From a virus (lineage: Duplodnaviria; Caudoviricetes), in IMG/VR virus record IMGVR_UViG_3300045936_000212, positions 1,206-65,205 of that record: 64,000 nt of DNA. One strand, written 5' to 3'. The position numbers and the translations under genes are program-made. Positions 17,901 to 62,586 of this stretch are shown piece after piece. Numbering within the stretch: the stretch's first letter is position 1; each line of letters starts with the position of its first letter. Under the pieces are notes generated by a model, which searched no databases, was not told where the DNA came from, and saw nothing but the letters and a program-made list of their open reading frames with translations.

Positions 17901-20900
17901 CAAAATCTCGCGCTGGAGAAGGCTTCCGAACAGCTTAAAAGCGCGCAGGAAATCCTGGCCGGCCGCGACACCCAGGCGCAGCTACAGCTGCAGATGAATC
18001 TCGTCGGTCAGACCAGCGAAGAGATTCAACGCCAGGTCACTATTCTGCAAGAGAAGCAGAGGATCGAACGGGAGTTTCCTCTGCTGTCGGAAGCCGAGAA
18101 GGCGGCAAAGCTCAAAGTTACGGAGGAGATAGCCAATCAGACCAAACTGCTCGCGGACATGAACCGCGAGCAGCAGCGCATCGACGGCCTCTATCGGCAG
18201 ATTGGCGACACCATCGTCAACACGCTGGGCCAGGCGCTCGACTCCGTCTTCGACCCCAAGAAGCCGATGGATTGGGGCAAGTCGATCAAGAACATGCTTT
18301 CCTCGCTGGTCGGCACGATCGGCCGCGAGATGTTGTTCAAGCCGCTGACCGGCTCGATCCTCTCGACGCTCGGCGCCTCGCCCTCGACGGTACAGCAGTA
18401 CGGCACGCTCGGCGGCAGCGGCGGCCTGTTCGGCAACATCGGTTCCCTGGGGTCGACAGGCTCTTTTCTGAAAAGCATTTTGCCCGAAAGCTGGTTCAGC
18501 GGCGGTGGGCTGTTCTCCAATATTGGCAGTTCGCTCGGGTTCGCCTCGACGGCCCCGGTCAGCAGCGTCTTTGGTATCGAATCATCGACCCTGAGTTCGC
18601 TCGGGCTGACCGGCAACATGGCGGTGCCTGGCAGCGTCTTTGGCATGACGAGCCTGGGCAGTGCCCTCGGCAGCGTCGGTGCCGGGTTTACCGCAGGGAC
18701 GATGATCAACAGCCTGGTCGGTGGCAAATCGACCGGCGGCATGATCGGCAGTGGTGTCGGCTCTATCGCCGGCATGGCGATTGGTTCGCTTATTGGTATG
18801 CCGTTCCTTGGCGCGCTCCTAGGCGGGGTTGGTGGCGGGCTATTCGGCGGCATGTTCGGCAACAACCGGCCGCGCAACCAGTCGGCCGGGTTCTCGACCG
18901 ATGTTTCGACTTTCCAGATCCAGTCCGGCTTTGCCGGGGGCAACCAGCAGATCGACCAGGCGGTCCTCGAAGCCGGGCAGAAGCTGCAGGGCTACCTCGA
19001 CCTGCTGAAGACGACCGGCGGCGCGCTCTCCGGCCAGCTTCTGCTGCAGCATGGCGTCAACACCGGGGTGACCCTCGATTACTCGGGCGTCCCCGGCTAC
19101 GGCAGCGGGCGGCTCTCGCTCGGCCAGGATCCGACCAAGGCGGTCGGCGATGTCGCGCTCGTCCTGGCGAAAACCATGACCGGGGTCAGCGACACGTTCA
19201 AGTCGGTGATGGACTCGGTCAGCGACCCCGCCAAGCTGGAGCGGGCGATTGCCTTCGCCAAGGCCTATGAGGCGATCGACGAAGCCGCCGAGGACGCCTT
19301 CGCCTCGATCGAAGACGCCACCAAGCGGATGGGCCCCTACCGCGTGGCCATCGACGAGATCAATGCCACCTTCGCCGATCTGACCGAGCAGGCGAAGGAA
19401 TTTGGGCAGGCCATCCCGCCGATCACCGCAGCGCTCGATGAAGCCATCAGCCGGCTCCGAGGTGACTTCAAGGACTCGCTGCAGCGCGCCCTCAACGAGG
19501 CGACCGGCGCGGGCTTCATCAACACGATCAAGGACATTTGGGATCAGTATCTCGCCTCGATCACCGACAGCCAGGCGATCGGCCTCGGCTCGGATCGCGC
19601 CACCCAGGATCTTCTGGGGCAGGTGGCGACCAATCAGATCCGGCAGGTGCTGGAGGGGTTGTCGGTCGCCGAACTCGACACGGTCATCGCCGAGTTCACC
19701 GGCCTCAACGATATCATCGTCGAACTGGCCCAGACCGCGAAGCTGACGACCGACGAGGTCGATCAGCTGGCGAGCCAGCTCGCGCAGATCCGGCTCGATA
19801 TCCAACGGTTCGTCGACAGCATCCGGGGCACCGCCGGGCCGGGCGCATCGCCCGAGCAGGCCTACTACGCCTCGGTTGCGCAGTGGGGCACGCAGTACGA
19901 CCTCGCCTCGCGCGGCGACATGAACGCGCTGCAGAACATCACTGGCTACGCGCAGCAGTACATCGACGCGATCAGCGGGTACTTCGGCTCGTCGCAGGCC
20001 GGGCAGGTCGAGATCGACCGGATCCTGGCGAACCTCGAGGCGCTGGCGCCGACGACGATCCAAGATCCGGTGGTGCAGGCGATCACGGTGCTAACCGAGG
20101 CGGTGACCACCGGCACCACGACGGTGACATCGGCGATCGAGGCGATCCCGACATCGCTACAGGTGATCCTCGACGCCAACACGCTGGCGGCGACCCAGGC
20201 GATCTACGCCAACAATTCGCTGCTGGAGCAGCTGCGGACCGATGTCAACGCGAGCGCCGAGACCGCCAAGACGGCGATCGACACGCAAATCCAGCAGCTC
20301 ATCACCGACATCACGGTGCAGACCTCGAGCCTGATCGGCCAGGGCATCCTGAATACCCAATCGCTGATCGACGCCAATAACACCGGGTTTGCCGATGTGA
20401 CGGCGCAGTATCAGGCCGAGACCGACCGGCTGATCGCATCCGGCGCCGCCACAACCGCCCAATTGCAAGAACTGAACACGCAGACCGCGACCGACATCAT
20501 CAACGAGGCCGGGATCAACGCCGACGACATCATCGCCGAGAGCAACCAGCGGCTCGACGATGCGCTCTCGAAATACGACGAGACGATCGAAGGCATCGGC
20601 GATGTCTCGACCGACGCCCAAGGCATCATCACGGCGGTCAACGCGACCGGCACCCTTCTGGCGCCGCTAATTACCGCTGTCGGCACCGATGTGGTGGCGG
20701 AACTCGGCGATGGTCCCAACAGTGTGGTCGGCTCGATCGTGAGCGAGCTCGCCGCCGTCTCGGGCTACCAGATCAGGGACCGCGGGTTCAATACCGGCCT
20801 GCTGATCGAGGCCATCGGCCTGGTCGGCGACGAGGTCAACGCCGCCGCGCTCGTCTACTCGAACAATGAAATAAGCAAGATGGGGACGGTGGAGACAAAC

Positions 20901-21287
20901 CTCCTGTCGAGCCTCAGTTTCAACTTTATCGCCGTCCTCAACGCGCTGAACTCGATCAGCGGCTACCTGCTCACCACCGACGCGACCAATTCGCTCGCCA
21001 TCGCCAATGCCGTCATCGGGGGCTTCAACAACGAAGCGACGGCGATGCTGACCTATGCCAATGGCGAGCAGGCGTTGCTTGGGCAGATCAACACAACCCT
21101 CGGCGGCGCGAACGGCGTCTACCAGACCAACCACTGGCTTTACCTGATCCAATACGATCAGAACTATTTCGGCTGGGAGCATATGCGGCGGTTCGACCGG
21201 ATGATCGAGCTTCTGGTCTCGATCGACACGAACCTTAAGCTCTCGCTGACGGCGCCCGTTCAGCAATGGCCAGCCTATGGCATGTAG
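14916..21287 (+). CDS. Tape measure protein with embedded M15 (VanY-like) peptidase
   Basis: 2123 aa, Ala-rich helical; lambda-type QINDVATQLASGANPFRVATQQAGQ motif; SGFRTFEQQ..SMHEKGLAAD..EPWH peptidase motifs at about 17100-17440. Confidence 0.92.
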   Translation: MATPLSISLKVVGLDQAKADLRTFAEAGKRTFDEIEAEAKKIGEAASNSDRSLQALANRLRQTSAAIDPVTASAIKLRESLVDVQRGLQANLISTEQAARMTEFHRQKHEDFVQTVTKSVSALTRMSGELREFGTVGRQSFEQISAAAKGLAGTALTTEDALTKAMTVVRGLAAEMNPAAAAALKLREQLAAIATVEASGNISPEVAAGLRQQLQLARELADQEAALATQRQAAALIQKQVTAEATAAEQRAATATQVHSAEVAAAARTAATAQKAAAQETAAVIKTAEEQAATAWRVHYAEVAAQARAAAAAQQAAAQSAALVEKATALIQKQAADEAKKAEEQATTASRVHYAEVAARARLAGEAVKGTAQQTTISAAQARFAVQQFGFQINDVATQLASGANPFRVATQQAGQFVQAFQVGGGPAAVLRGFVVELKSLISPTTVAIAGLAALGVGFIALVARSTAADAAMRQFAVTLEAMNLTAKATPAGLEAVSHSFLDLGISVSEARTQLNQLATSGLDPQRWQAIIRAAANLQTVFGGDQFQNLKNAFAGGVESASTYALKLRLITTDQAAYARQLVLSGDAGKALDFILQQVTARSDDWNKRALSPLGQALRDLNVAYDKFVTTLSKSDAIRGVVEQTTALVRVIEDLFKKEPPKWFRVLFMDEAVPGLGNIVTQLLRMQGIPVTGSGPGGISGPAPAAGGAASGAGAGPLSVTITKSPSAVAGLDPTLQFALRDMFAAAAESGITLGIGSGFRTFEQQTKLYNEAIAKYGSANIPGHQVAYPGTSMHEKGLAADLTASGTTIRAGSPEARWLAANASTFGISFPVRGEPWHAQLAGDVVPAGGRTGLLTAVGEQDPTKIDAVNKLIEAETRRANALRGMGQVLTENEVRERAATIALENELTVEQKARVEAALLANSRATFNNELDNSNKLLNQEISGQQSIVQAYQASSLAGKVRETQFKAETEALRLFGTTDSAVAKQFIENRTKQNLALEKASEQLKSAQEILAGRDTQAQLQLQMNLVGQTSEEIQRQVTILQEKQRIEREFPLLSEAEKAAKLKVTEEIANQTKLLADMNREQQRIDGLYRQIGDTIVNTLGQALDSVFDPKKPMDWGKSIKNMLSSLVGTIGREMLFKPLTGSILSTLGASPSTVQQYGTLGGSGGLFGNIGSLGSTGSFLKSILPESWFSGGGLFSNIGSSLGFASTAPVSSVFGIESSTLSSLGLTGNMAVPGSVFGMTSLGSALGSVGAGFTAGTMINSLVGGKSTGGMIGSGVGSIAGMAIGSLIGMPFLGALLGGVGGGLFGGMFGNNRPRNQSAGFSTDVSTFQIQSGFAGGNQQIDQAVLEAGQKLQGYLDLLKTTGGALSGQLLLQHGVNTGVTLDYSGVPGYGSGRLSLGQDPTKAVGDVALVLAKTMTGVSDTFKSVMDSVSDPAKLERAIAFAKAYEAIDEAAEDAFASIEDATKRMGPYRVAIDEINATFADLTEQAKEFGQAIPPITAALDEAISRLRGDFKDSLQRALNEATGAGFINTIKDIWDQYLASITDSQAIGLGSDRATQDLLGQVATNQIRQVLEGLSVAELDTVIAEFTGLNDIIVELAQTAKLTTDEVDQLASQLAQIRLDIQRFVDSIRGTAGPGASPEQAYYASVAQWGTQYDLASRGDMNALQNITGYAQQYIDAISGYFGSSQAGQVEIDRILANLEALAPTTIQDPVVQAITVLTEAVTTGTTTVTSAIEAIPTSLQVILDANTLAATQAIYANNSLLEQLRTDVNASAETAKTAIDTQIQQLITDITVQTSSLIGQGILNTQSLIDANNTGFADVTAQYQAETDRLIASGAATTAQLQELNTQTATDIINEAGINADDIIAESNQRLDDALSKYDETIEGIGDVSTDAQGIITAVNATGTLLAPLITAVGTDVVAELGDGPNSVVGSIVSELAAVSGYQIRDRGFNTGLLIEAIGLVGDEVNAAALVYSNNEISKMGTVETNLLSSLSFNFIAVLNALNSISGYLLTTDATNSLAIANAVIGGFNNEATAMLTYANGEQALLGQINTTLGGANGVYQTNHWLYLIQYDQNYFGWEHMRRFDRMIELLVSIDTNLKLSLTAPVQQWPAYGM

Positions 21288-30982: not shown

Positions 30983-31191
30983 CCGGCCTCCAGATCGAAC
31001 ACCACGACTGCGGCGGGTGGCATGGTGGTGTCGAATCCGATGTCGTCGAGATATTTTGAGACGATGGTCAGCGCGGTGACGTCAGAGCCCGGCGGCGGGG
31101 CGCAGATGGTGGCGATAAACTTCGTGTCCCACCAGACCTCGATGACGGCGTTGCCGTGGACGGTGTGGACGCCGGGGCGGAAGGTCATCAT
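30979..31191 (-). CDS. Hypothetical protein
   Basis: MMTFRPGVH start overlapping the upstream stop (TGATG). Confidence 0.6.
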   Translation of the reverse strand: MMTFRPGVHTVHGNAVIEVWWDTKFIATICAPPPGSDVTALTIVSKYLDDIGFDTTMPPAAVVVFDLEAG

Positions 31192-31601
31192 CAGGTCTGC
31201 TCCGTCGATGGATCGCTGCTCGTCTTGAGCTGCACCGACGCGTCGACCGCGGCGAGCTGCTGCTTCGCCCATTCGACTGCCTTGGCGTGGCCCGCCTCGG
31301 CCTCCTCCCAGGTGGCGTAGCGTTCCTGATAGCCCTTGAAGTCCGGGGTGATCTCGCGGCCGAGTACGATCTTCGGCTCGCCGCCAAAGACCATCGTCTC
31401 GAACAGAATGGCCGGCGCATCCGGCTCTATCGAAAAACTGTGATCGAGCCCGAGGAACACGGTCGAAACGTCGAGCGGCCCGACCTCCGTCTTGCCGACC
31501 GTCCACTCCTGCGTGCCATACTGGGAACCTGCGGCCCACTCCTCCATGCTGCACGGCACGGCGAGCTTGCCGATCAGCTTGTAGTGGCGCGGTCTATTCA
31601 T
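31191..31601 (-). CDS. Conserved phage hypothetical protein
   Basis: VSTVFLGLDH..LFETMVFGG..RYATWEEAEAGH family motif. Confidence 0.8.
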   Translation of the reverse strand: MNRPRHYKLIGKLAVPCSMEEWAAGSQYGTQEWTVGKTEVGPLDVSTVFLGLDHSFSIEPDAPAILFETMVFGGEPKIVLGREITPDFKGYQERYATWEEAEAGHAKAVEWAKQQLAAVDASVQLKTSSDPSTEQT

Positions 31602-31843
31602 CGAGACCCCCTGACATCGCAGCCGGTCCAGTTAGGGACGCCGCCGATGGCGGCGCAGGCCCGGAACATTTCCGCCCTGGCGTTGCTTTCGGCCGATGTC
31701 ATCCAGGCGACCGAGATAAAAAACGACGCCAAGCAAATCGCGGTGCTGGCTGCCAGCGCGATCATCCGGAGATGGCGTGTGGGGTCGCTCGAACGAGCTT
31801 GCCACTGGCGGCATCCTGTTGGCGGCGGTCCCGGCATCACCAA
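31598..31843 (-). CDS. Small TM protein
   Basis: Hydrophobic segment; start uncertain. Confidence 0.5.
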   Translation of the reverse strand: MVMPGPPPTGCRQWQARSSDPTRHLRMIALAASTAICLASFFISVAWMTSAESNARAEMFRACAAIGGVPNWTGCDVRGSR

Positions 31844-32139
31844 AGTCCAGAAAGGCGCCCGGAGATAATGATCGTCATCCCCTGCGCCAGCGTGGCGATG
31901 ATGCTGGCGATGGCGACCGCGAGGATCAGCCAGCGCAGCCGCCGATAGTTGCGCTGCACCCGCTCCATCTCCCCGGCGAAATCCAATTGGTTCCGCAGCA
32001 GCAGCAACTGAAACCGGATGTAATCGACCAGCGGATGCAGCCCGAACGGGATGTCCACGTCGAGCGGATCGCGCTCGGGCGGCTCGGTCTCGCGGCGATG
32101 CCGGGCGAACGGCGTGGGGATGCTAAACCGGGCCACCAC
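31837..32139 (-). CDS. Small TM protein
   Basis: C-terminal hydrophobic helix; start uncertain. Confidence 0.5.
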   Translation of the reverse strand: MVARFSIPTPFARHRRETEPPERDPLDVDIPFGLHPLVDYIRFQLLLLRNQLDFAGEMERVQRNYRRLRWLILAVAIASIIATLAQGMTIIISGRLSGLW

Positions 32140-32380
32140 CCGGACCTCTCAGCACCTCGAGGAACAGCGGCTGGCCGGGGCGGCCTATGGGCTGCGCCCC
32201 GTCGTCACCGACAAACCGGACCGCCTGGCCGAAGATGATCACGAGGTTGTAGCGCGCGCCGCAGGCACGGCAGGTCATGTTCTGGCACGAGCCGCCGCGC
32301 GGCCCCGGCTCAAAATTCTCGACCGGGTCGCTGCAGTAGAGGCAGCCGCTAAACGCCGAGAACGGTTCCGGGGTCTTCAT
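32123..32380 (-). CDS. Zn-ribbon protein
   Basis: CLYC...CRAC. Confidence 0.65.
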   Translation of the reverse strand: MKTPEPFSAFSGCLYCSDPVENFEPGPRGGSCQNMTCRACGARYNLVIIFGQAVRFVGDDGAQPIGRPGQPLFLEVLRGPGGGPV

Positions 32381-32745
32381 TCCACGACCTCGATCGTAAC
32401 CCGGACCCGCTTCCCGTCGAACTGCGCAAAGGCGGCGTGCTGCTTCGTCTCGTCATAACTGTGCAGCCGCACGAAGAAGGCGTCGGGACCCGAGACCTCG
32501 GCGATCTTCGCCTGTCCGGAGTCCTCGGTCGTGGACTCGACCTTGCCCTCCAGCGTGCAGATGCCAACCGGCGGCAAGCCTCTTTTGCTGACGGCGCGCT
32601 CTGCGATACCGGCGATCATCCCCAGCGCCAGCGGCAGGTTCGGATCATCAACGCGGGCAGTGGCGGGCCAGGAATGGCTGCTCAGCGCCTGCCCCCGGAT
32701 CTGCTTCAGCAGGTCTATGGCGGTGCCGTCGACCTTGTCGGCCAT
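32377..32745 (-). CDS. Hypothetical protein
   Basis: AGGAG RBS before MADKVDG. Confidence 0.65.
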   Translation of the reverse strand: MADKVDGTAIDLLKQIRGQALSSHSWPATARVDDPNLPLALGMIAGIAERAVSKRGLPPVGICTLEGKVESTTEDSGQAKIAEVSGPDAFFVRLHSYDETKQHAAFAQFDGKRVRVTIEVVE

Positions 32746-32761
32746 GTCGGTTCTCCTGTTT

Positions 32762-33778
32762 TCATGATGATGCCGGCAGCATCGCCCAGCGGGCGACTTC
32801 GTCAAAGCGCTCGGCGAATTCCGGCCGGATTTTATATTGCCCGCTGTTGCCCCACATGACCCCGAGCTGCACCAGCGTTTCGGCGCAGCGCGGCGTGTTG
32901 CCCTTCTCTTTGCCCCTTATGCGCTCGATCGTGGCGGCGATCTCCTCGGGCGGCATCCGCTCCGAGACCTCGCCCTGATGGATCAGCCGACCGGCGAACC
33001 GGCGCAGGATGCGCTCGCCATACGCCTCCAACTGGTCGAGTTCAATCTCGGCAAAGCTCCCGACCGGCGGCAGCTCGTCCCCGGCCTTGTCCTCCTCCTC
33101 GGCCTTGCCCTCGGGCTTTTTGAATAATTCCTCGGGGTCGACCCAGCGCATCTCGCCCTTCCCGTCGAACACCGGGGCACGCAGCGGCGGCGGCGGGTCC
33201 TTTGCGGATTTGCGCAATTCCGAAAATCCGACGACCTTGCGCCGCAGCGGCTCCTTCGGGCGGTGTTCCCAGCGGTAGCTGAGCGCCTGCGGTGTCAGCC
33301 TGGGATCGTCGAAATACTGCGGGTGCCGGTTGGCGTAAGCCGTGATCTCGTCGATCTGGCGGCGCAGCGCCACCAGCGTCGAGCGCTGATGCGACGGCAT
33401 CTCGGCGTAGCCCTGGCGCCGGTACCAGTCGCGGATCCAGAGATTGTAGGCGCGCCCGGTGGTGGCTCCGTTCGAGGCCTGGATCGCCTCCTCACGCCCG
33501 GCCGCGAACTCGCTCACTGTCGCGACGATCGCCGCGAACCCGATCGGCACTCCGAGCGGGTCGCGGGTCGGGGGCGGTGTCTGGGCCTTGGGTTCGGCCG
33601 GCGCGGGCGGGGCGGCGGCGGTGACCCGGCGGGTCGGCGCGGCCTTGTCGCCGCCTATCCCCAGCCGGCGCCGGATCCAACCCTCAAGCGACAGCCCGAG
33701 ATTGCGGGCTTCGCCGCGGACGTGGTCGTACTCCCGTTCGTCGAGAGTGATTTCGAATTGGTGTCTGATCGATGCCAT
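32762..33778 (-). CDS. Hypothetical protein, possible N-terminal ribbon-helix-helix
   Basis: AGGAGGAG RBS; FEITLDEREYDHVRGEARNLGLSLEGWIRRRL. Confidence 0.7.
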   Translation of the reverse strand: MASIRHQFEITLDEREYDHVRGEARNLGLSLEGWIRRRLGIGGDKAAPTRRVTAAAPPAPAEPKAQTPPPTRDPLGVPIGFAAIVATVSEFAAGREEAIQASNGATTGRAYNLWIRDWYRRQGYAEMPSHQRSTLVALRRQIDEITAYANRHPQYFDDPRLTPQALSYRWEHRPKEPLRRKVVGFSELRKSAKDPPPPLRAPVFDGKGEMRWVDPEELFKKPEGKAEEEDKAGDELPPVGSFAEIELDQLEAYGERILRRFAGRLIHQGEVSERMPPEEIAATIERIRGKEKGNTPRCAETLVQLGVMWGNSGQYKIRPEFAERFDEVARWAMLPASS

Positions 33779-33807
33779 GTTGTTGCGGCTCCTCCTGTTG
33801 TTTGCTC

Positions 33808-33883
33808 TGGCAGGGGTGACCGGAATCGAACCGGCGAATACGGGCTGCACAGGCCCGCGCGTCTACCACTCCGCCACACCCCC
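33808..33883 (-). tRNA. tRNA with GTG (His) anticodon, atypical (no G-1, G1-U72, G73, C37)
   Basis: GGGGGTG-TG-GCGGAGTGGTAGACGC-G-CGGGC-CTGTGCA-GCCCG-TATTC-GCCGG-TTCGATT-CCGGT-CACCCCT-G-CCA; 76 nt with encoded CCA. Confidence 0.88.
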
Positions 33884-33887
33884 TTTC

Positions 33888-33963
33888 TGGTGGATCCGAC
33901 CGGACTCGAACCGGCACATCGGCGCGTTGCAAGCGTCGGCGTCTTCCTTTCCGCCACGGACCC
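33888..33963 (-). tRNA. tRNA with GCA (Cys) anticodon and Ala-type acceptor (G3-U70, A73)
   Basis: GGGTCCG-TG-GCGGAAAGGAAGACGC-C-GACGC-TTGCAAC-GCGCC-GATGT-GCCGG-TTCGAGT-CCGGT-CGGATCC-A-CCA; 76 nt. Confidence 0.88.
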
Positions 33964-33964
33964 G

Positions 33965-34084
33965 TCAAAAAAAACTCCTCACCCAGACGACGGCGAACCC
34001 GATCAAGCCCCACAAGACAAGTGACGCCGCGATGATGACGAGCGCGCCAGCGCCGTCCGTCAGCCTGTCGTCGGCGTGTGTCAT
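33965..34084 (-). CDS. 39-aa single-TM peptide (not in ORF track)
   Basis: GAGG RBS; MTHADDRLTDGAGALVIIAASLVLWGLIGFAVVWVRSFF*. Confidence 0.6.
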   Translation of the reverse strand: MTHADDRLTDGAGALVIIAASLVLWGLIGFAVVWVRSFF

Positions 34085-34088
34085 GGCT

Positions 34089-34685
34089 TCACCTCAGCTC
34101 CCGCCTTGCGGCGTCGATCGCGAGGTTGAGGTCGCGCAGCTTGTCGCTGCCTTCGCCCGCCTCGCGCGCCAAGGCCCGATAGACCGCCTCGGCGGCGGCA
34201 AGCGAGCGGGTCTCAATGTCCAGCACCTTGCGCCAGTCGAACGGGCGCTCGGGCGGCGGCAAGGCGCGGGCGCCCTCGACGGCGGCCACCAGCGAATAGG
34301 CACCGATCTCGTCGACCAGCCGCAGCCGCTCCATCGTGAGACTGAGCGCGCGCACGTTCTGCGGCAGTTCCTCGAACCGGTCGCAGGCCAGCACCATCAG
34401 CGCCGTGTCGCCGGTCACGTCCTTGCCGGCGAGGGTGAACCACAGCGCCGCACCGGGGTCGGCGTGCGCCTGCGCCCGGCCGACGTGCCAGCTGCTCAAT
34501 TGCCAGTCGACGATGCGGGCGTTGCGCTTTACCCGCTGCCAGCGCGTGACCTCGGCCTCGATCGTCGCCATCGCTTGGCTGAAGAGCCGCAGGCTGTAGC
34601 GCCCCTTCTCGCGCCGGTCGGCCGGCGTCCTGGCGCGGCCTGGGGGCCAGGCGAGCGGGTAGGGCGCGGGGAGGGTGGTCGTCAC
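34089..34685 (-). CDS. Phage DnaJ-like protein with a degenerate J-domain
   Basis: YPLAWPPGRART, LACDRF..NVRAL, WRKVL..YRALAREAGEGSDKLRDLNLA; the HPD motif is absent. Confidence 0.75.
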   Translation of the reverse strand: MTTTLPAPYPLAWPPGRARTPADRREKGRYSLRLFSQAMATIEAEVTRWQRVKRNARIVDWQLSSWHVGRAQAHADPGAALWFTLAGKDVTGDTALMVLACDRFEELPQNVRALSLTMERLRLVDEIGAYSLVAAVEGARALPPPERPFDWRKVLDIETRSLAAAEAVYRALAREAGEGSDKLRDLNLAIDAARRELR

Positions 34686-34951
34686 CGGAACCGCACTCCT
34701 TCGCCCTCGGTCGCCCAGATGCCCAGCGACTTGAGCCGTGCCTCGGCCTGGGCCAAGCGTAGCCGTTCACGCTGCAGTTCGAGGCTGAGGTCGCGCACCT
34801 GGCGCTCGGCATTAGCGGCGCGGCGGCGTTGATCGCCGAGTTCCCGGCGCAGCTTGTCGACGCCGCTATCCTCCAGCAGCTTCGCGATCTTCGCGTGCAG
34901 GGCGGCGATCTCGCGCCGTAGTTCCTTGACCCTGACCGGTGTCGTCGTCAT
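34682..34951 (-). CDS. Coiled-coil hypothetical protein
   Basis: ATGA overlaps; heptad pattern. Confidence 0.65.
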   Translation of the reverse strand: MTTTPVRVKELRREIAALHAKIAKLLEDSGVDKLRRELGDQRRRAANAERQVRDLSLELQRERLRLAQAEARLKSLGIWATEGEGVRFR

Positions 34952-35229
34952 GCGTCCCCCCGACAGGGGATCTTGACGCTGGTCGGGTCGTCGGCTCGGC
35001 CGGCTGCGGTGACGGCACCCTGCCAGCCGCAGATCTCGCAGCGCACCAGCCACGTCCCGACACCGGGCGCGGGGTACTTCAGAAATGCCGTGCAAAAAAC
35101 GCTCGCACCCTTGCTGATATCGTGCGCGATGCCGAACGGCCATTTCGGATCAGCAGGCGAGCGAGCCGGTTCTCGGCTGCGCCATTCCCATCGGATGATG
35201 AACTTGCCGCGCATCACGCCGGCATCCAC
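34948..35229 (-). CDS. Cys-containing hypothetical protein
   Basis: CEICG; operon coupling. Confidence 0.65.
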   Translation of the reverse strand: MDAGVMRGKFIIRWEWRSREPARSPADPKWPFGIAHDISKGASVFCTAFLKYPAPGVGTWLVRCEICGWQGAVTAAGRADDPTSVKIPCRGDA

Positions 35230-35465
35230 ACGGCGTCGCCGCCGGTCGGCATCATCTCGTCGTGCCTCGCGCGATAATAAGCGCGGCCAGCCGGCTTGCC
35301 GTCCTGTCCCGGCACCGGGATGTAACCGATGGCACCCCAGTCGCGCGCCTCGGTCACCACCATGAAGCAGTAGGCGAGCATCGGGTTCTGGGCGTTGTCG
35401 CCGAGCTGCACGACCTCGCCCACCCGCCAGGGCCGGGCACCGCTGTCGATGTCGTCGCGCGGCAT
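35214..35465 (-). CDS. Hypothetical protein
   Basis: GEVVQL..CFMVVTEARDWGAIGY; operon coupling. Confidence 0.7.
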   Translation of the reverse strand: MPRDDIDSGARPWRVGEVVQLGDNAQNPMLAYCFMVVTEARDWGAIGYIPVPGQDGKPAGRAYYRARHDEMMPTGGDAVWMPA

Positions 35466-35466
35466 C

Positions 35467-35778
35467 TCAAGCCCTCCCGGTCATTTCCGGCTGGCCTTCG
35501 AACCGGGCGATCATCTCCTTCATCAGGTTGACGACATCGCGCCTGTCGGCCCCGTTCGACATGTAGTTGCAGCGCCCCGTGTGATCGTCGAACGGGAAGA
35601 CCATCAGGACGAACCCAACTTTCCGAGCACCGCCCTTGGCGTCGCCGTTGAAGAACTCGTCGACGGCGTGCGCCACCGCCGTCATCTTCTCGTGGTACTC
35701 GGCCTCGACCGGCGCATCGCCCAGGCGATCCTGCGGCTGCTGCTGCCGGAACTCGCGCCGTCGCTTGCTCTCGCCCAT
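35467..35778 (-). CDS. Conserved phage hypothetical protein
   Basis: GFVLMVFPF..RCNYMSNGADR family motif. Confidence 0.75.
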   Translation of the reverse strand: MGESKRRREFRQQQPQDRLGDAPVEAEYHEKMTAVAHAVDEFFNGDAKGGARKVGFVLMVFPFDDHTGRCNYMSNGADRRDVVNLMKEMIARFEGQPEMTGRA

Positions 35779-36155
35779 CAGTTCGGTTTCCCTCGTCGGT
35801 GCAGATCGCCGTAGAGCGCATTGGCGGCGTCGTTCGCTTGGGCGGTCTCTTTGAGGAACGGCGCTGCCTCTTCCAGCGTCAGCCAGGCGCTGCGCCCGAG
35901 ATCGATGCTCCATTCGGTCGCGCCGCAGATCGCGCACCACGGGTTGATGGCTTTCGCCTCCAAGGCCTGCCGGGTCTCCTCGCGCAGCGGCTCGACCAAT
36001 CTTTCCTCGGCTTCCTCGCGGGTCGCGGCCTCGCCGGCCGCCGCCATGATGCAGTGGCGCTGCGGGCACAGGCACTGCGCGATCCACACCCGCACCACCG
36101 GGGCGGTGGTCGCATCGTCTGGGAAGGCGCGCCGCCGTCGCTTGGCTTCACCCAC
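35778..36155 (-). CDS. Zn-binding hypothetical protein
   Basis: CLCPQRHC..WCAICG; MGEAKRRR start like its neighbour. Confidence 0.65.
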   Translation of the reverse strand: MGEAKRRRRAFPDDATTAPVVRVWIAQCLCPQRHCIMAAAGEAATREEAEERLVEPLREETRQALEAKAINPWCAICGATEWSIDLGRSAWLTLEEAAPFLKETAQANDAANALYGDLHRRGKPN

Positions 36156-36345
36156 CGGTCTTCTCCCGGTGCTTGGCGGCGTCCCATTCCATGACGTGCT
36201 TCAGGAAGAGCAGGTCATCTTCCGACCAATGCTGCATCAGCTCCGGATCCTCTTTGATCTCGCGGTCGAGCTCAGTCACCACATCGCGGAACCGTTCATA
36301 CGGGGTCAGCGATCTGGCCCGCAGGCGTTCCGCCTTGGTCAGCAC
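36148..36345 (-). CDS. Hypothetical protein
   Basis: GTG start overlapping the upstream stop. Confidence 0.55.
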   Translation of the reverse strand: MLTKAERLRARSLTPYERFRDVVTELDREIKEDPELMQHWSEDDLLFLKHVMEWDAAKHREKTGG

Positions 36346-36647
36346 CTCGGCCTCGCCCGGTAATGCTCGATCAGCGACGCCACGGTCTGTTGATGGAGTG
36401 CGAGCATGTCGGCCTGTAGTTCCTGCGTCGCCTCCGGGTTGTCCTCGACGCGGTGACCATCGATCCAAATCGCCACGAGGTCGGCGAGGATGGCCCCCTG
36501 TAAGAGGCTACCCTTGCCGGCGAGCAGCGGTTTGATCTGCTCCACCGCAGCATCCGAGTCTTCGCGCAGCTTCTCGATGCCGCCGGCATCCGCCAGCAAC
36601 TCGCTAAGTTCGCGCAGCGGCTCCGAGACGGCAGCGGGTGCGGTCAT
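36339..36647 (-). CDS. Hypothetical protein
   Basis: ATGA overlap with RecT. Confidence 0.65.
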   Translation of the reverse strand: MTAPAAVSEPLRELSELLADAGGIEKLREDSDAAVEQIKPLLAGKGSLLQGAILADLVAIWIDGHRVEDNPEATQELQADMLALHQQTVASLIEHYRARPRC

Positions 36648-38209
36648 GGCCGCAGCCTTGCGAAGGTCGCCTCGATCGCCTGGTCGAGTTCGTCGATATC
36701 CGGTTTGGCGACCGCCGAGCGGGCCTGCTCGATGTTCGCGGCGTTGTCGCCCAGGAGGTAGGCGAGGTCGTCGCTCGAGGTCTGCTGCTTGACCTTGGGA
36801 ATGAGGAGGCCGCGCACATAGGTGCGGTAGTCGGGCTTGCCGCGCGACATCGGCGGCGGTCCGATGAACTTGCTCTGACGCTCGCCCGCCTCAGAAGGGG
36901 ATGCAGGTGTCGTCGCAGTCGGGCCAGGACCAGCCGGTGAACTCGCTCCAGCCGCGACCGTCGGCGCGGGGGAGCCGCCCATAACGTCCTGGCTCGTGCC
37001 CGACGCGGCAGCGACCTGGGTAGGAGGGCGCGCGGGATCCATCCGCTGCGAACCGACATCGACGACTTCCGCCGGCGGCATTGCGAGACGCTGGCCGGGC
37101 GGCAGGTCGCCGGGGAAGCGGTCGTCCTCGGGGATGGGCGCAGTGGCGGCGGGCGGTGGTGCAGGAGCCACCTCGGCGGGGCGCGACGGCTCGGTGGGCG
37201 GCGGCGCGCTCTGGCCCTCTGGCGGCGATCCTGGCGGCTCTGAGGGGGTCACCCGCCCCGGCTCGGTATGGGCCGGGTCTGGCACCGGGGCGGGCGCCTC
37301 CGTCCGGGGTGCGGACGGAGCCGGTGGCGGGAACTCGGCGAGCAGCATAGCGCCGGCCTCGCCCAGTTGCGTCATGACGTCGGCGTTGTTCTCGATGGCG
37401 GCTTCCAGCATCTTCGCCCCGGCCCGGCGGGCGCCGGTCAGGACGGTGCGCAGCGCATCGAGCGCGTTCGCTCCAGCCTCGAACTCAAAGACCTCGCCGT
37501 CGAGCGCCACCACGGCAAAGAGTTCCGGCTCGGGTTCGGGTTCCGGTTCGTGGTAGTCGCTGCGCTGCGGCTCCGGGGTCTCCGGTTCCATGTCGATGAC
37601 ATCGCCCATCTCTTCCGGGGCATAGATGCCCAAGAGGATCTCGGGGACGTAGCGGCGCGCCCAGGCGCGTGTCGTGTAGTAGTAGAGCTGCTGGTCGCGG
37701 TCGGCGCTCCACAAGGGCGAGTTCTTAACCGCGATCTCCTCGACGGTTGGCGATTCGTACTCGAAGGGTTCTTCCTCCCCCTTGATGTAGCCGATGATCT
37801 TGCACTTGCGCTTTGGGCCTTGGCCTTCGTAGACCGGCCGCAGCCGCTTCTGCAGGACGCCCGAGGAGGTGACGATGGCGTGGATCAGCTGCGCCTCGTA
37901 GCTGATCTGCTCGTCGCCCGATTTCGACTTCGTGATGTAGGCCTTGTTGGCCCAGGCGAAGGGGTCGCCGCCGCAACGGAAGGCCTGTAGCGCGACGGCG
38001 AGACAGGCACCGGGGTTGCCGCGAAAGCCGGGGCGCACGCAGAAATCGGAGACCGCCATCATCTTGGCGAACTCCATGATCTCGCCGACATTGCGCGGCA
38101 TGATGGTAAAGGTGCCGGCAGTCGAGCGGCTGATCGCCAGGTTGCCGGCGACCTCGCGGTCGATGTTGCGCTCGATCCGCGCCAGCCGGCCTTCCGTCTG
38201 GGTCTGCAT
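36644..38209 (-). CDS. recT: RecT-family single-strand annealing protein with long Pro-rich C-terminal extension
   Basis: FRGNPGACLAVALQA..GGDPF, ISYEAQLIHA, SPLW..DQQLYY..RAWARRYVPEILLGIYAPEE. Confidence 0.88.
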   Translation of the reverse strand: MQTQTEGRLARIERNIDREVAGNLAISRSTAGTFTIMPRNVGEIMEFAKMMAVSDFCVRPGFRGNPGACLAVALQAFRCGGDPFAWANKAYITKSKSGDEQISYEAQLIHAIVTSSGVLQKRLRPVYEGQGPKRKCKIIGYIKGEEEPFEYESPTVEEIAVKNSPLWSADRDQQLYYYTTRAWARRYVPEILLGIYAPEEMGDVIDMEPETPEPQRSDYHEPEPEPEPELFAVVALDGEVFEFEAGANALDALRTVLTGARRAGAKMLEAAIENNADVMTQLGEAGAMLLAEFPPPAPSAPRTEAPAPVPDPAHTEPGRVTPSEPPGSPPEGQSAPPPTEPSRPAEVAPAPPPAATAPIPEDDRFPGDLPPGQRLAMPPAEVVDVGSQRMDPARPPTQVAAASGTSQDVMGGSPAPTVAAGASSPAGPGPTATTPASPSEAGERQSKFIGPPPMSRGKPDYRTYVRGLLIPKVKQQTSSDDLAYLLGDNAANIEQARSAVAKPDIDELDQAIEATFARLRP

Positions 38210-58488: not shown

Positions 58489-58790
58489 TGCCCGAGCTGC
58501 ATGTCGATGTCGATCTGGTGGTCAAAATATTCGCGCGCGTCGATGGCGCGCCGACGCCGGTCGATGGGCAATTTATCGTGCGCTACGACCCGATGATCGA
58601 TCAGACCGGTGCCTATCGGCTCGACACCACCGCCGACATCGACGAGGCGCTGGGCTTCTCGCGGGTGTCGGAGATCGAGGCGTTCATCCGGCGCCCGTCG
58701 CCGAATGTGCCGTTCGACCGCCCCGGCCACGTCAACCGGCCGATCACCTGCTACCACCTCGAAATCCTGCCGCGGGTGCGGCGCCCATGA
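58488..58790 (+). CDS. Hypothetical protein
   Basis: GGAGG RBS; TGATG coupling. Confidence 0.65.
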   Translation: MPELHVDVDLVVKIFARVDGAPTPVDGQFIVRYDPMIDQTGAYRLDTTADIDEALGFSRVSEIEAFIRRPSPNVPFDRPGHVNRPITCYHLEILPRVRRP

Positions 58791-61142: not shown

Positions 61143-61513
61143 GCGAACCCGTCACCTTTGTCGTCGAGACCCGCCACGGCCGGGAGAGCGCCAGCATCGT
61201 CTACGGCCAGCTTCCCGAGCATCTGCGGGCGAAGGGGTCGAACCAGCTGGTGTGGGTCTGGCGGCTCGACAAGCTGCCAAACGGCGAGGCGCTGCAGCAG
61301 ATGCCGATCGGCGACCTCTACGACCAGTTCGTGCGGATGCGCGAGCAGGGCAAGCTGCCGCCGTCCAACCTCGCCGATCCGCCGAGGAAGGTCGAGACCG
61401 GGCCGAAGGTCATCGAGCGCGGGCCGGAATTCTGGTGGAAGCCCACACCGCTGCCGCGCGGCCAGGACTGGACCCCTGACGCGCCGCCGGCCGACATCGT
61501 GGGGTTCGAGTGA
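61139..61513 (+). CDS. Hypothetical protein
   Basis: ATGA/GTGA overlaps. Confidence 0.6.
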   Translation: MSEPVTFVVETRHGRESASIVYGQLPEHLRAKGSNQLVWVWRLDKLPNGEALQQMPIGDLYDQFVRMREQGKLPPSNLADPPRKVETGPKVIERGPEFWWKPTPLPRGQDWTPDAPPADIVGFE

Positions 61514-62586
61514 CGGTCACGATCCTCACCGGAGACGCGCGCGGCCGGCTGCAGGAACTGCAGTCCGACAGTGTCCACTGCGTCGTCACCTCGCCCCCCT
61601 ATTACGGGCTGCGCGACTACGGCGTCGCCGGCCAGATCGGACTCGAGGCCTCGCCCGACGACTACATCGATGCGCTGGTCGAGGTGTTCCGCGAGGTGCG
61701 CCGCGTGCTGCGCCCGGACGGCACGCTGTGGCTCAACATCGGCGACAGCTACGCCGCCGACGGCGGCACCTATCGCCGCAACAACGGCAACAAGGATAGC
61801 CGCGCCCGCTACGACGGGCGCTCGCCGGCCCGGCCGCGCCACACCGGCAGCAGCATCAAGCCGAAAGACCTGATCGGGATCCCGTGGATGCTCGCCTTCG
61901 CGCTGCGCGCCGACGGCTGGTGGCTGCGCCAGGAGATCATCTGGTCGAAGCCCAACCCGATGCCGGAACGGGTCAGGGACCGCTGCACCAAGGCGCACGA
62001 GTCCCTGTTCCTGTTGAGCAAGCGTGCGCGGTACTGGTTCGACGCGGCGGCGATCGAGGAAGAGCGCGTCTCGGACGAGGACGCCAACGGCTTTCGCGGC
62101 GGGGCCTATGTCGATGCCGAGATCGACAACGGCGTGATCGGCAAGCGGCGCACGGTCGGCAACAAACGCCTCTATGTCCCTGGCAACAAGACGCATCGAG
62201 GCGCGCTCGCTTACGAGGCCGGCGACGAGCATTCGCGAACCAAGGCTGGCCTCGTCGCCTTCGCGGAGCGCGAGCGGGGCAAAGCCGCCAACGGCGAGCA
62301 GCTGGGGACGCGCAACCGGCGATCGGTCTGGACGGTGGCGCGCAGCGAGCCGTTCGCCGAGGCGCACTTCGCGACCTATCCGCCGACGCTGGTCGAGCCG
62401 TGCCTCCTGGCGGGTTGTCCCGAGGGCGGCACCGTCCTCGACCCGTTCGCTGGATCCGGCACCACGGGGCTGGCGGCGGACAGGATCGGGCGCAATGCGA
62501 TCCTGATCGAGCTCAACCCCGAATACGCGGACATGGCGCGGCGCCGGCTGATTGCCGATGCGCGCCTCTTCGCCGATGTCGCATGA
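61510..62586 (+). CDS. N4/N6 DNA methyltransferase (beta class)
   Basis: VTSPPY before VLDPFAGSGTT; HFATYP. Confidence 0.93.
   Translation: MTVTILTGDARGRLQELQSDSVHCVVTSPPYYGLRDYGVAGQIGLEASPDDYIDALVEVFREVRRVLRPDGTLWLNIGDSYAADGGTYRRNNGNKDSRARYDGRSPARPRHTGSSIKPKDLIGIPWMLAFALRADGWWLRQEIIWSKPNPMPERVRDRCTKAHESLFLLSKRARYWFDAAAIEEERVSDEDANGFRGGAYVDAEIDNGVIGKRRTVGNKRLYVPGNKTHRGALAYEAGDEHSRTKAGLVAFAERERGKAANGEQLGTRNRRSVWTVARSEPFAEAHFATYPPTLVEPCLLAGCPEGGTVLDPFAGSGTTGLAADRIGRNAILIELNPEYADMARRRLIADARLFADVA

What the first reader, a model, noticed from the sequence alone, without database searches (positions are those of the whole stretch)
33888..33963. tRNA with Cys anticodon on an alanine-identity acceptor stem: possible mistranslating tRNA
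Seen: the canonical 76-nt fold gives anticodon stem GACGC/GCGCC (one A-C mismatch) and loop UU-GCA-AC, i.e. Cys. The acceptor has G1-C72, G2-C71, G3-U70 and A73. Known: G3-U70/A73 are AlaRS determinants, AlaRS ignores the anticodon, and CysRS needs U73. Inference: it could insert Ala at UGC/UGU codons or act as a decoy. The alternative register with UGC (Ala) centred pairs only 2 bp without a bulge, so a shifted or frameshifting tRNA-Ala is a second possibility.
Basis: partly seen in the sequence, partly recalled or inferred. Interest (0 to 1): 0.72.

Follow-up and report, generated by a model that had tools for sequence, protein, structure and literature searches.

The report
Phage tRNA: Cys anticodon, Ala/Leu identity
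A soil phage carries a well-formed tRNA gene that should read cysteine codons but lacks the cysteine charging signal and instead carries the full alanine signal plus a leucine-type core, so it may insert the wrong amino acid, although nothing here shows that it is charged or used.

Summary
Window 33888-33963 (minus strand) is a 76-nt tRNA gene with encoded CCA, called tRNA(GCA) by ARAGORN and scoring 41.3 bits on Rfam RF00005. It has G1-C72, G2-C71, G3·U70, A73, loop UUGCAAC and one A28xC42 mismatch. The same sequence stands in contigs of two soil metagenome runs, so it is not an assembly slip.

It lies in a 65-kb temperate phage whose terminase relatives are alphaproteobacterial prophages. 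Next to it is a paralogous tRNA-His(GUG) with no G-1 and a G1·U72 pair, as in that host clade.

In 1,193 other-than-Ala tRNAs parsed from fetched loci, only this one has the full alanine acceptor set. All 48 other tRNA-Cys have U73 and none has G3·U70.

LeuRS therefore rivals AlaRS.

The phage's own UGC codons sit at conserved cysteines, including a methyltransferase PCQ motif, so this is not codon reassignment.

No homologue was found, and charging and use are untested. Best reading: a hybrid-identity, potentially mistranslating tRNA (0.45). The main rival is a drifting or inert gene copy (0.25).

The parts
33888..33963 (-). tRNA gene with anticodon GCA (33930-33928), G3·U70 (33961/33894), A73 (33891), A15:U48 (33949/33916), A28xC42 mismatch (33936/33922) and encoded CCA (33890-33888)
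   Evidence: ARAGORN. Rfam RF00005 41.3 bits. Identical in contigs of runs X1 and X6.
33884..33887 (-). 4-nt spacer (GAAA on the minus strand) between the two tRNAs. It puts A, not G, at position -1 of the tRNA-His.
   Evidence: Sequence read; tRNA coordinates.
33808..33883 (-). Paralogous tRNA-His(GUG) with no G-1, G1·U72 (33883/33812), G73 (33811), G15:C48 and encoded CCA. Its D and T arms are nearly identical to those of the GCA tRNA.
   Evidence: ARAGORN. Rfam 56.5 bits. Arm-by-arm comparison.
33965..34084 (-). 39-codon ORF whose stop codon ends 1 nt upstream of the GCA tRNA (only base 33964 lies between). Its last codons hold a run of eight U.
   Evidence: Sequence. Accepted as a 39-aa protein, with no PHROG match. 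A weak terminator-like site lies at 33997-33978.
34089..34685 (-). Upstream gene in the same orientation, 198 aa, of unknown function
   Evidence: PHROG phrog_9210, E 5.8e-23. No Pfam family.
32762..33778 (-). Downstream gene P0001 (338 aa). A GGAGGA site lies about 11 nt before its ATG, and the ATG is 30 nt after the tRNA-His. It is an ORFan.
   Evidence: Translation. No PHROG or Pfam family. Only itself among 5.8 billion clusters, at similar lengths.

Best explanation
This is a real, structurally intact phage tRNA gene of hybrid identity. It sits inside a leftward (minus-strand) operon of a temperate phage of alphaproteobacteria and is probably released from the transcript by RNase P and 3' trimming (inferred). 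Its seven-base anticodon loop presents GCA, so on the ribosome it should pair with the cysteine codons UGC and UGU (inferred from the sequence). It lacks the cysteine discriminator U73 and the C3-G70 pair. It carries the whole acceptor-end signature of tRNA-Ala: G1-C72, G2-C71, G3·U70 and A73. It also carries the core signature used by bacterial LeuRS: A73, A15:U48, G18G19 and a Leu-type D loop. AlaRS and LeuRS both ignore the anticodon. The most likely outcome is charging with alanine, and possibly leucine as well, followed by stochastic Cys-to-Ala (or Cys-to-Leu) substitution in competition with the host's tRNA-Cys (inferred). The phage's own UGC codons still mean cysteine. Any such activity would therefore be mistranslation at some tolerated level, not a recoding. 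Shown here: the gene, its features, their rarity, and the absence of recoding. Inferred: expression, processing, charging and decoding.
For: Identity rules were read in papers. Bacterial Cys determinants are U73, G2-C71, C3-G70 and GCA. Bacterial Ala determinants are A73, G2-C71, G3·U70, G4-C69 and G20. G1-C72, G2-C71, G3·U70 and A73 are conserved in all known non-animal-mitochondrial tRNA-Ala (PMC9976931, passages). G3:U70 placed in tRNA-Cys or tRNA-Phe gives Ala charging in vitro and in cells (PMC8583063, passage). For E. coli Leu identity, A73, A15-U48, G18G19 and A20a matter, while the anticodon and long arm are not needed (PMC9976931). An anticodon-swapped phage tRNA-Leu decodes TCG as Leu in E. 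coli (bioRxiv 10.64898/2026.09.17.752456, passages).

Background counts come from tRNAs in the fetched loci.
- 48 of 48 other tRNA-Cys have U73, and 0 of 48 have G3·U70.
- 143 of 144 tRNA-Ala have G3·U70, and 143 of 144 have A73.
- A15:U48 occurs in 51 of 53 short-arm Leu and 65 of 65 long-arm Leu, but in only 3 of 48 Cys.
- All 62 short-arm tRNA-Leu have A73, and the D arm is 15/16 identical to three of them.
- An anticodon-blind naive-Bayes classifier (leave-one-out accuracy 0.78) puts the acceptor end with Ala (4.8 bits) and the body with short-arm Leu (2.6 bits); Cys scores -3.7 on the body.

In the candidate host order, the U73 form of the tRNA(GCA) pattern is found in 380 of 401 genomes.

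Several signs point to selection on fold and charging. Against the His paralogue there are three double compensatory changes in the acceptor stem, two in the anticodon stem, and G15:C48 versus A15:U48 (read). U8, A14, G18G19, U33, A37, the GUUCGA T loop and CCA are all present. The neighbouring tRNA-His has the host-clade-specific G1·U72 without G-1. In Caulobacter HisRS, U72C costs 91-fold and A73C only 3-fold (PMC3064791).

The sequence is identical in contigs of two runs.
Against: - No homologue was found, so nothing shows that G3·U70 plus GCA is conserved. There was none in IMG/VR with two patterns. There was none in the metagenome contigs. There was none in 401 genomes of the host order, nor in 5 + 49 genomes with related terminases. 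Only 3 of 40 terminase-related virus records hold any tRNA.
- The Rfam score of 41.3 bits is below 47 of the 49 tRNA matches of a candidate host genome. The anticodon stem has an A x C mismatch. The cloverleaf is not the MFE fold. The total anticodon-blind score fits no isotype well: the best is short-arm Leu at -2.1, against a self-median of 14.
- Two minor Ala determinants are not met: U4-A69 instead of G4-C69, and A rather than G at position 20.
- The phage needs cysteine at UGC. The PCQ catalytic motif of its C5 methyltransferase is TGC. Four of five TerL TGC codons lie in columns that are Cys in 81-99% of 138 relatives. Efficient mischarging would hurt the phage itself.
- One genome of the host order (G394) has an otherwise ordinary tRNA-Cys with A73 and no U73 copy found. 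A73 may therefore be tolerated by CysRS in this clade, or that record has an error.
- RNA evidence is weak. One 190-nt metatranscriptome contig covers 33920-34109, and DNA carry-over cannot be excluded.
Confidence: 0.45

Rival explanations
1. It is a drifting or inert duplicate: a tRNA gene copy that no longer has to work, is poorly expressed, processed or charged, and has picked up G3·U70 and A73 by neutral change.
For: The score is low for a tRNA, 41.3 bits against 50-76 for most host tRNAs. There is an A28xC42 mismatch, and no isotype model fits. No homologue was found anywhere searched. Both tRNAs of the phage have discriminators unique in the sample: A73 in 1 of 49 Cys and G73 in 1 of 37 His. 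G3·U70 alone occurs in 11 of 1,191 other non-Ala tRNAs. There is no enrichment of Cys or His codons in the phage against host-clade loci: Cys 0.81 vs 0.99%, His 1.63 vs 1.87%.
Against: All invariant tRNA positions and the CCA are kept. Five stem pairs and the 15:48 pair differ from the paralogue by changes on both sides that keep pairing. The acceptor stem has 7 of 7 pairs. The combination G1-C72/G2-C71/G3·U70/A73 was seen in 0 of 1,191 other non-Ala tRNAs. The paralogue shows host-specific His determinants, so the pair is not simply decaying.
Confidence: 0.25
2. It is a working tRNA-Cys, possibly with dual Cys/Ala acceptance. CysRS reads the GCA anticodon strongly enough to charge it despite A73, and the tRNA supplements the host's single tRNA-Cys gene.
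For: GCA and G2-C71 are CysRS determinants (PMC9976931). The phage's UGC codons sit at conserved cysteines, including a catalytic one. Candidate hosts have one or two tRNA-Cys genes. One genome of the host order has tRNA-Cys with A73 and no U73 copy found.
Against: U73 is called a major determinant, sufficient on a minihelix (PMC9976931). It is kept in 48 of 48 other tRNA-Cys in the sample, and the U73 pattern is in 380 of 401 host-order genomes. C3-G70 is replaced by G3·U70. The core is A15:U48, whereas 38 of 48 Cys have G15:C48. The body scores -3.7 bits for Cys. Cys codons are not enriched in the phage.
Confidence: 0.15
3. It has a non-decoding role. It could be a decoy for a host tRNA-targeting defence nuclease or toxin, or a processing signal that cuts the operon transcript between the upstream genes and P0001.
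For: The two tRNAs lie inside an operon. The first begins 2 nt downstream of a stop codon (one base between), and the second ends 30 nt before the next start codon. Phage tRNAs are said to evolve to avoid host tRNA nucleases (statement in bioRxiv 10.64898/2026.09.17.752456).
Against: Nothing tested here points to it. A decoy would not need an encoded CCA, a full acceptor identity set, or a His partner tuned to the host HisRS.
Confidence: 0.1
4. It is a shifted-register or frameshifting tRNA-Ala(UGC).
For: The string UUGCAA also contains UGC. A tRNA-Ala in L275 shares a 13-nt anticodon-arm string with it in the other register.
Against: The UGC register leaves 2 stem pairs and costs 6 kcal/mol. 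U33 and a purine at position 37 are in place only in the GCA register. The D arm, variable loop and core are not Ala-like. ARAGORN and Rfam both choose the GCA register.
Confidence: 0.02

Closest known systems
[quoted passage not shown]
   Same: A GCA-anticodon tRNA carries the G3·U70 pair. The engineered form is charged with Ala in vitro and in cells.
   Different: Here the tRNA is natural and phage-borne. It has A73 as well, and its core is of the Leu type rather than that of a cellular tRNA-Cys.
Human tRNA variants (Pro, Cys-GCA, Thr, Gly) that gained G3:U70 and are misacylated with Ala (PMC11415595, passage)
   Same: The same anticodon and the same gained determinant occur in nature.
   Different: Those are single-nucleotide population variants of cellular genes. 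This is a phage gene that differs from host tRNA-Cys at many positions.
Bacterial mistranslating tRNA-ProX family of Streptomyces and Kitasatospora (PMC10404621)
   Same: It is a genome-encoded tRNA whose anticodon and charging identity disagree.
   Different: Those have Pro identity with Ala, Thr or Asn anticodons, are conserved across genomes, and were tested experimentally. This one is a single untested case with Ala/Leu determinants and a Cys anticodon.
Allo-tRNAs and mitochondrial tRNAs with G3:U70 and non-Ala anticodons (PMC7609411, passages)
   Same: G3·U70 plus A73 on a non-Ala anticodon directs Ala insertion.
   Different: Allo-tRNAs have 8/4 or 9/3 folds. The mitochondrial cases are true codon reassignments. 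Here the fold is the ordinary 7/5 cloverleaf, and the phage's UGC codons still stand at conserved cysteines.
Phage short-variable-arm tRNA-Leu
   Same: The D arm is 15/16 identical. A15:U48, a 5-nt variable loop, a similar T arm and A73 are shared.
   Different: Those carry Leu anticodons and C-G, U-A or G-C at 3:70 (0 of 118 with G·U). This one has GCA and G3·U70.

Membership tests
tRNA (Rfam RF00005) | Cloverleaf match above the gathering score, with invariant positions | tested here: met
   41.3 bits against a gathering score of 29. ARAGORN gives a 76-nt cloverleaf. U8, A14, G18G19, U33, purine 37, the GUUCGA T loop, C61 and CCA are read.
tRNA (Rfam RF00005) | Cloverleaf thermodynamically favoured | tested here: not met
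   The cloverleaf is -25.5 and the MFE -28.6 kcal/mol; z is 0.15 against shuffles. This is common for GC-rich tRNAs and is not disqualifying.
Bacterial tRNA-Cys (CysRS substrate) | Anticodon G34 C35 A36 | tested here: met
   Seven-base loop UUGCAAC. The alternative register is 6 kcal/mol worse.
Bacterial tRNA-Cys (CysRS substrate) | Discriminator U73 | tested here: not met
   It has A73. U73 is in 48 of 48 other tRNA-Cys sampled, and the U73 pattern is in 380 of 401 host-order genomes.
Bacterial tRNA-Cys (CysRS substrate) | G2-C71 and C3-G70 | tested here: not met
   G2-C71 is present, but 3:70 is G·U. Table 1 of PMC9976931 lists both pairs.
Bacterial tRNA-Ala (AlaRS substrate) | G3·U70 wobble pair | tested here: met
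   G at 33961 and U at 33894. It is seen in 143 of 144 sampled tRNA-Ala and in 0 of 48 other Cys.
Bacterial tRNA-Ala (AlaRS substrate) | A73, G1-C72, G2-C71 | tested here: met
   All are present. The full set occurs in 0 of 1,191 other non-Ala tRNAs.
Bacterial tRNA-Ala (AlaRS substrate) | Minor determinants G4-C69 and G20 | tested here: not met
   It has U4-A69, and A follows G18G19 in the D loop.
Bacterial tRNA-Ala (AlaRS substrate) | Ala anticodon (needed for decoding, not for charging) | tested here: not met
   The anticodon is GCA, not NGC.
Bacterial tRNA-Ala (AlaRS substrate) | Actual alanylation | not testable with these tools
   This needs an aminoacylation assay.
Bacterial tRNA-Leu (LeuRS substrate, E. 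coli rules) | A73 | tested here: met
   A73 is present. It is in 53/53 short-arm and 65/65 long-arm Leu sampled.
Bacterial tRNA-Leu (LeuRS substrate, E. coli rules) | A15:U48 Levitt pair, G18G19 placement, A20a-type D loop | tested here: met
   It has A15 and U48. The D arm is 15/16 identical to the short-arm tRNA-Leu of L284, L293 and L298. The rule was read in PMC9976931. My numbering of A20a is by alignment to those D loops.
Bacterial tRNA-Leu (LeuRS substrate, E. coli rules) | Leu anticodon; long variable arm | tested here: not met
   It has GCA and a 5-nt variable loop. Neither feature is required by E. coli LeuRS, and 62 of 133 sampled tRNA-Leu are short-armed.
Sense-codon reassignment system (as in mitochondrial G3:U70 tRNAs) | The genome's own codons of that kind stand where relatives have the new amino acid | tested here: not met
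   TerL TGC codons lie at columns that are Cys in 117/132, 109/135, 132/138 and 133/135 relatives, with Ala at most 10/135. The methyltransferase PCQ Cys is TGC.

The most novel reading that the evidence does not exclude
The phage deliberately encodes a mistranslator. The tRNA is charged by anticodon-blind AlaRS and/or LeuRS and is expressed from the early or lysogenic leftward operon. It replaces a fraction of cysteines across the host proteome, weakening Cys-dependent host enzymes or defence proteins, or inducing a stress state that favours the phage. The phage tolerates the cost in its own few critical cysteines. The sample also holds other phage tRNAs with Ser- or Leu-type bodies and foreign anticodons. 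This would then be one member of a wider, unrecognised class of phage tRNAs built on anticodon-blind identities.
Probability: 0.12. Interest if true: 0.85.

Novelty: new variant of a known kind. Interest (0 to 1): 0.5.

Why it matters
Hybrid-identity tRNAs that break the codon-to-amino-acid rule are known from a few bacteria, from organelles and from human variants. G3·U70 on tRNA-Cys is the textbook engineered case. A natural phage-borne tRNA that joins a Cys anticodon to a complete Ala acceptor set and a Leu-type core would be a ready-made test of how three synthetases compete for one tRNA in vivo. If active, it would show that phages can tamper with sense-codon fidelity and not only with stop codons. 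There is also a practical warning for annotation. Naming by anticodon calls this tRNA-Cys, and calls its neighbour an ordinary tRNA-His, although neither has the usual discriminator. The neighbour's G1·U72 without G-1 is a useful host marker for phages of the alphaproteobacterial clade whose tRNA-His lacks G-1.

Tried and rejected
- My first class pattern for 'GGG...U70CCA73 + YTGCAR' was confounded. All 119 IMG/VR hits were ordinary tRNA-Ala(UGC) with a purine at position 38. With the second gap fixed at 15 nt there were 43 hits. ARAGORN called 36 of them tRNA-Ala(tgc). The 7 not called all read CUUGCAA in the Ala register. None was in the Cys register. tRNAs with a 4-nt variable loop could not be separated from tRNA-Ala by a pattern and were not searched.
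- An exact anticodon-arm pattern found nothing in IMG/VR.
- Neighbour proteins gave no relatives in IMG/VR: P0001 and the 198-aa protein. P0001 also has no relative of similar length in the 5.8-billion-cluster search, so no syntenic relatives could be examined. For the same reason I made no structure prediction.
- A DNA search of the phage collection gave only a 73% match of the tRNA pair to tRNA-Gln/Ile of an Erwinia phage, plus 190-nt matches to mycobacteriophages elsewhere.
- A weak tRNA-like element in the related Mesorhizobium prophage has a UCC loop and is not a homologue.
- The codon-supply idea is not supported by a crude ORF caller.
- The promoter scan found none, and the terminator-like hits are weak.
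- Pfam and PHROG searches on neighbours gave nothing related to tRNA biology.
- RNA run X7 holds six short contigs at 99% or more, one over 33920-34109. DNA carry-over cannot be excluded, and contigs cannot show ends or strand, so I do not count this as expression.
- Parts of the 31000-37000 stretch without cover in X7 or X8 mean nothing.
- One search used a wrong reading frame for TerL and its table is void. One search repeats it correctly.
- The V73 scan of the host order listed 150 of 304 matches. The 154 unlisted rows could hold further non-U73 tRNA(GCA) genes.
- No paper describing a phage tRNA with a Cys anticodon and Ala identity turned up in searches. These searches see only open-access PMC and bioRxiv, and supplements were closed.
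Full report
**What is there.** The window is almost the whole of a 65,205-bp virus record that IMG/VR classes as linear and CheckV as 100% complete. It has 66% G+C. It encodes:
- a large terminase (completed upstream of the window);
- a fused prohead protease-capsid protein;
- a 2,123-aa ORF at 14916-21287, of the size and place expected for a tape-measure protein, although I ran no family search on it;
- a RecT-like protein and a tyrosine integrase;
- DnaB, a ParB-like protein and two DNA methyltransferases.

It is therefore a temperate tailed phage. ARAGORN finds exactly two tRNA genes in the whole record. They lie side by side on the minus strand: tRNA(GCA) at 33888-33963 and tRNA-His(GUG) at 33808-33883. 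Rfam RF00005 matches both, at 41.3 and 56.5 bits.

**The observation.**
- G1-C72, G2-C71, G3·U70, U4-A69, C5-G68, C6-G67 and G7-C66;
- discriminator A73 and an encoded CCA;
- anticodon stem GACGC/GCGCC with one A28xC42 mismatch;
- a seven-base loop UUGCAAC that puts GCA at positions 34-36, behind U33 and before A37.

The alternative register with UGC centred keeps only two stem pairs. It evaluates 6 kcal/mol worse, at -19.5 against -25.5. The cloverleaf is not the minimum-free-energy fold, and the energy is no better than that of shuffles. The call therefore rests on the covariance model and on the invariant positions: U8, A14, G18G19, U33, purine 37, the GUUCGA T loop and C61. All of these are present.

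An assembly slip is unlikely. A 3,003-nt contig of run X1 (depth 23, possibly the source sample) is letter-identical over the tRNAs. So is an 875-nt contig of run X6 (depth 5.5, another study code), while X6 differs by 2-10% further along the genome.

**Host.** Relatives of the terminase, at up to 70% identity, lie in prophages of Mesorhizobium, Starkeya, Rhodoplanes, Methylobacterium, Bradyrhizobium and other mostly alphaproteobacterial genomes. In five such genomes:
- tRNA-His has no G-1 and has G1·U72 and A73;
- tRNA-Cys is GGCCNCG...U73 with C3-G70 and a 4-nt variable loop;
- tRNA-Ala(UGC) has G3·U70 and A73.

The phage tRNA-His likewise has A at -1, G1·U72 and GUG, but G73. For the Caulobacter HisRS, which serves tRNA-His without G-1, U72C lowers kcat/Km 91-fold and anticodon changes lower it 91- to 1000-fold. 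A73C lowers it only 3-fold (PMC3064791, abstract and passages). The His gene thus looks tuned to this host clade. That argues that the pair is, or recently was, under selection for charging.

**How unusual the GCA tRNA is.** I ran ARAGORN on all 300 loci then fetched, which are mostly viral and metagenomic, plus the window. I parsed 1,523 unique tRNAs.
- Of 1,193 parsed non-Ala tRNAs, only this one has G1-C72, G2-C71, G3·U70 and A73 together.
- G3·U70 alone occurs in 11 of the other 1,191.
- All 48 other tRNA-Cys have U73, and none has G3·U70.
- In 401 genomes of the order of the closest terminase host, the U73 form of a tRNA(GCA) pattern is present in 380.

The non-U73 form of the pattern matched in 218 of the 401. 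The rows listed (150 of 304) are tRNA-Ala(UGC), with one real exception. Genome G394 has an otherwise typical tRNA-Cys ending in A73, and no U73 copy was found there. That single case is either an error or a hint that A73 can be lived with.

**No homologue.** None of these searches found another tRNA with this scaffold, GCA and G3·U70:
- two class patterns over IMG/VR;
- a scaffold pattern blind to anticodon and acceptor, run over IMG/VR and the metagenome contigs;
- BLAST over 401 + 5 + 49 genomes;
- a tRNA scan of 40 terminase-related virus records, of which only 3 hold any tRNA.

Both flanking proteins lack relatives: the 198-aa upstream protein in IMG/VR, and P0001 also in the protein-cluster collection.

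**What the body is.** The scaffold search was informative in another way. Its hits are bacterial-type tRNA-Cys (U73) and, in phage tRNA arrays, tRNA-Leu with a short variable loop.
- Such short-arm tRNA-Leu make up 62 of the 133 unique tRNA-Leu in the sample, and all 62 have A73.
- The D arm of the GCA tRNA is 15/16 identical to three of them.
- It shares their A15:U48 pair and 5-nt variable loop.
- A15:U48 is found in 51/53 short-arm and 65/65 long-arm Leu, but in only 3/48 Cys, of which 38/48 are G15:C48.

I built a naive-Bayes isotype classifier that ignores the anticodon. Its leave-one-out accuracy is 0.78, with Ala 138/144, Cys 44/48 and short-arm Leu 47/53 correct. It puts the acceptor end with Ala (4.8 bits) and the body with short-arm Leu (2.6 bits). 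Cys scores -3.7 on the body. The total fits no class: the best is -2.1, against self-medians of 12-15. The molecule is a three-way chimera of a Cys anticodon, an Ala acceptor end and a Leu core.

The His paralogue has almost the same D and T arms but carries G15:C48 and G73. It thus lacks the leucine marks. Between the two paralogues, three acceptor pairs, two anticodon-stem pairs and the 15:48 pair differ on both sides while staying paired. This speaks for continued selection on the fold.

**What the identity rules predict.** According to the review PMC9976931 (Table 1 and the Cys, Ala and Leu sections):
- bacterial Cys identity rests on U73, G2-C71, C3-G70, tertiary features and GCA;
- Ala identity rests on G3·U70, with A73, G2-C71, G4-C69 and G20;
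- E. coli Leu identity rests on A73, A15-U48, G18G19 and A20a, with neither the anticodon nor the long arm required.

G3:U70 placed in tRNA-Cys gives alanine charging in vitro and in cells (PMC8583063). Human tRNA-Cys(GCA) variants with G3:U70 are listed as Ala-misacylated (PMC11415595). An anticodon-swapped phage tRNA-Leu inserts Leu at a Ser codon in E. coli (bioRxiv 10.64898/2026.09.17.752456).

On these rules the phage tRNA fails two of the three acceptor-end marks for CysRS. It meets the major marks and two of the minor ones for AlaRS, and all the named marks for LeuRS. I therefore expect Ala, possibly with Leu. This is inference, because no tool here can test aminoacylation.

**Not a recoding.** If the phage read UGC as Ala or Leu, its UGC codons should stand where relatives have Ala or Leu. 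They do not.
- Four of the five TerL TGC codons are in columns that are Cys in 117/132, 109/135, 132/138 and 133/135 relatives, with Ala in at most 10/135. The fifth is a variable column.
- The GSPCQSFS motif of the C5 methyltransferase has TGC at the Cys. From general knowledge of these enzymes, that Cys is the catalytic nucleophile.

Any Ala or Leu insertion would then be mistranslation that also hits the phage's own proteins. That caps how active the tRNA can be, and it keeps the rivals alive.

The phage is not enriched in Cys or His codons relative to host-clade loci, by a crude ORF caller. Codon supply is therefore not an obvious reason for the pair.

**Context.** The GCA tRNA starts 2 nt downstream of the stop codon of a 39-codon ORF, with one base between. 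A 4-nt spacer separates it from the His gene. The next gene, P0001, starts 30 nt after that behind a GGAGGA site. The tRNAs are thus inside a leftward operon that also holds the RecT-like gene and, further up, the integrase. The neighbours have no family related to tRNA biology. A metatranscriptome run holds six short near-identical contigs of this region, one over 33920-34109. DNA carry-over cannot be excluded, so I do not count this as evidence of expression.

**Verdict.** It remains a prediction for a single, unconserved, untested gene. I put 0.45 on a hybrid-identity tRNA that is charged by an anticodon-blind synthetase and reads Cys codons. I put 0.25 on a drifting or inert copy, 0.15 on mainly Cys acceptance, 0.10 on a non-decoding role and 0.02 on a shifted tRNA-Ala.

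It is a new variant of a known kind, since natural hybrid-identity or mistranslating tRNAs are already known. I found no report of a phage case with this combination in four searches of the open-access library. Paper supplements were closed, and subscription papers are not covered.

Noticed in passing
window 33808-33883 (-): The phage tRNA-His has no G-1 (A at -1) and has G1·U72, like the alphaproteobacterial clade whose tRNA-His lacks G-1. Its discriminator is G73, the only G among 37 parsed tRNA-His in the sample. It is a likely host-range marker, and the G73 is unexplained.
   Followed up: partly
loci L003-L162 and L284-L298: 62 of 133 unique tRNA-Leu in the fetched, mostly viral loci have a short variable loop of 6 nt or less instead of the class II long arm. 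All 62 have A73, and of the 53 that the classifier could parse, 51 have A15:U48. Short-arm tRNA-Leu seem common in phage tRNA arrays.
   Followed up: partly
L086, L110, L138, L131: Other phage or metagenome tRNAs have a body and an anticodon that disagree. One has a long-arm Ser-type body with G73 and a Trp CCA anticodon (L086). Two have Leu-long-type bodies with Asn GUU (L110) and Glu UUC (L138) anticodons. In all, 17 of 1,321 tRNAs had a strong mismatch by my classifier, and some may be ARAGORN register errors.
   Followed up: no
L415 = G394:C501:44-117: A chromosomal-type tRNA-Cys(GCA) of the host order ends in A73 instead of U73. No U73 copy was found in that 2.4-Mb genome. It lies near a contig end and may be an error.
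   Followed up: partly
L285 (metagenome contig): A tRNA-like gene has the same Leu-type D arm, a variable loop ending in U, and A73. ARAGORN calls it Gly(ACC), and its acceptor stem has only 5 of 7 pairs.
   Followed up: no
L091, L096, L120: Three tRNAs in viral contigs have eight-base anticodon loops, which ARAGORN labels with two isotypes. As parsed, they have G3·U70 and A73. They may be off by one base at the 5' end.
   Followed up: no
L123, L125, L126, L141, L143, L148, L155: Seven roughly 80-kb IMG/VR records share a 72-nt element. It matches the Ala acceptor pattern and has a CUUGCAA loop, but ARAGORN does not call it a tRNA.
   Followed up: no
L265:9289-9367 (G001 prophage): The related Mesorhizobium prophage holds a weak tRNA-like element (22.9-29.9 bits, UCC loop, poor D arm) about 33 kb from its terminase gene. 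That is about the same distance as the tRNA pair lies from the terminase in this phage.
   Followed up: partly
L275 (G422:C152): This is a dense array of 14 tRNA genes, most without an encoded CCA. It lies on a short contig of a MAG labelled Clostridia that also holds a terminase relative. It is probably a phage contig binned with the wrong organism.
   Followed up: no
window 58787-60778 (+): The C5 cytosine methyltransferase is 663 aa long. The Pfam match falls in two stretches, so there is a long insert between the catalytic and target-recognition parts. A second methyltransferase (N6_N4_Mtase) lies at 61510-62586.
   Followed up: no
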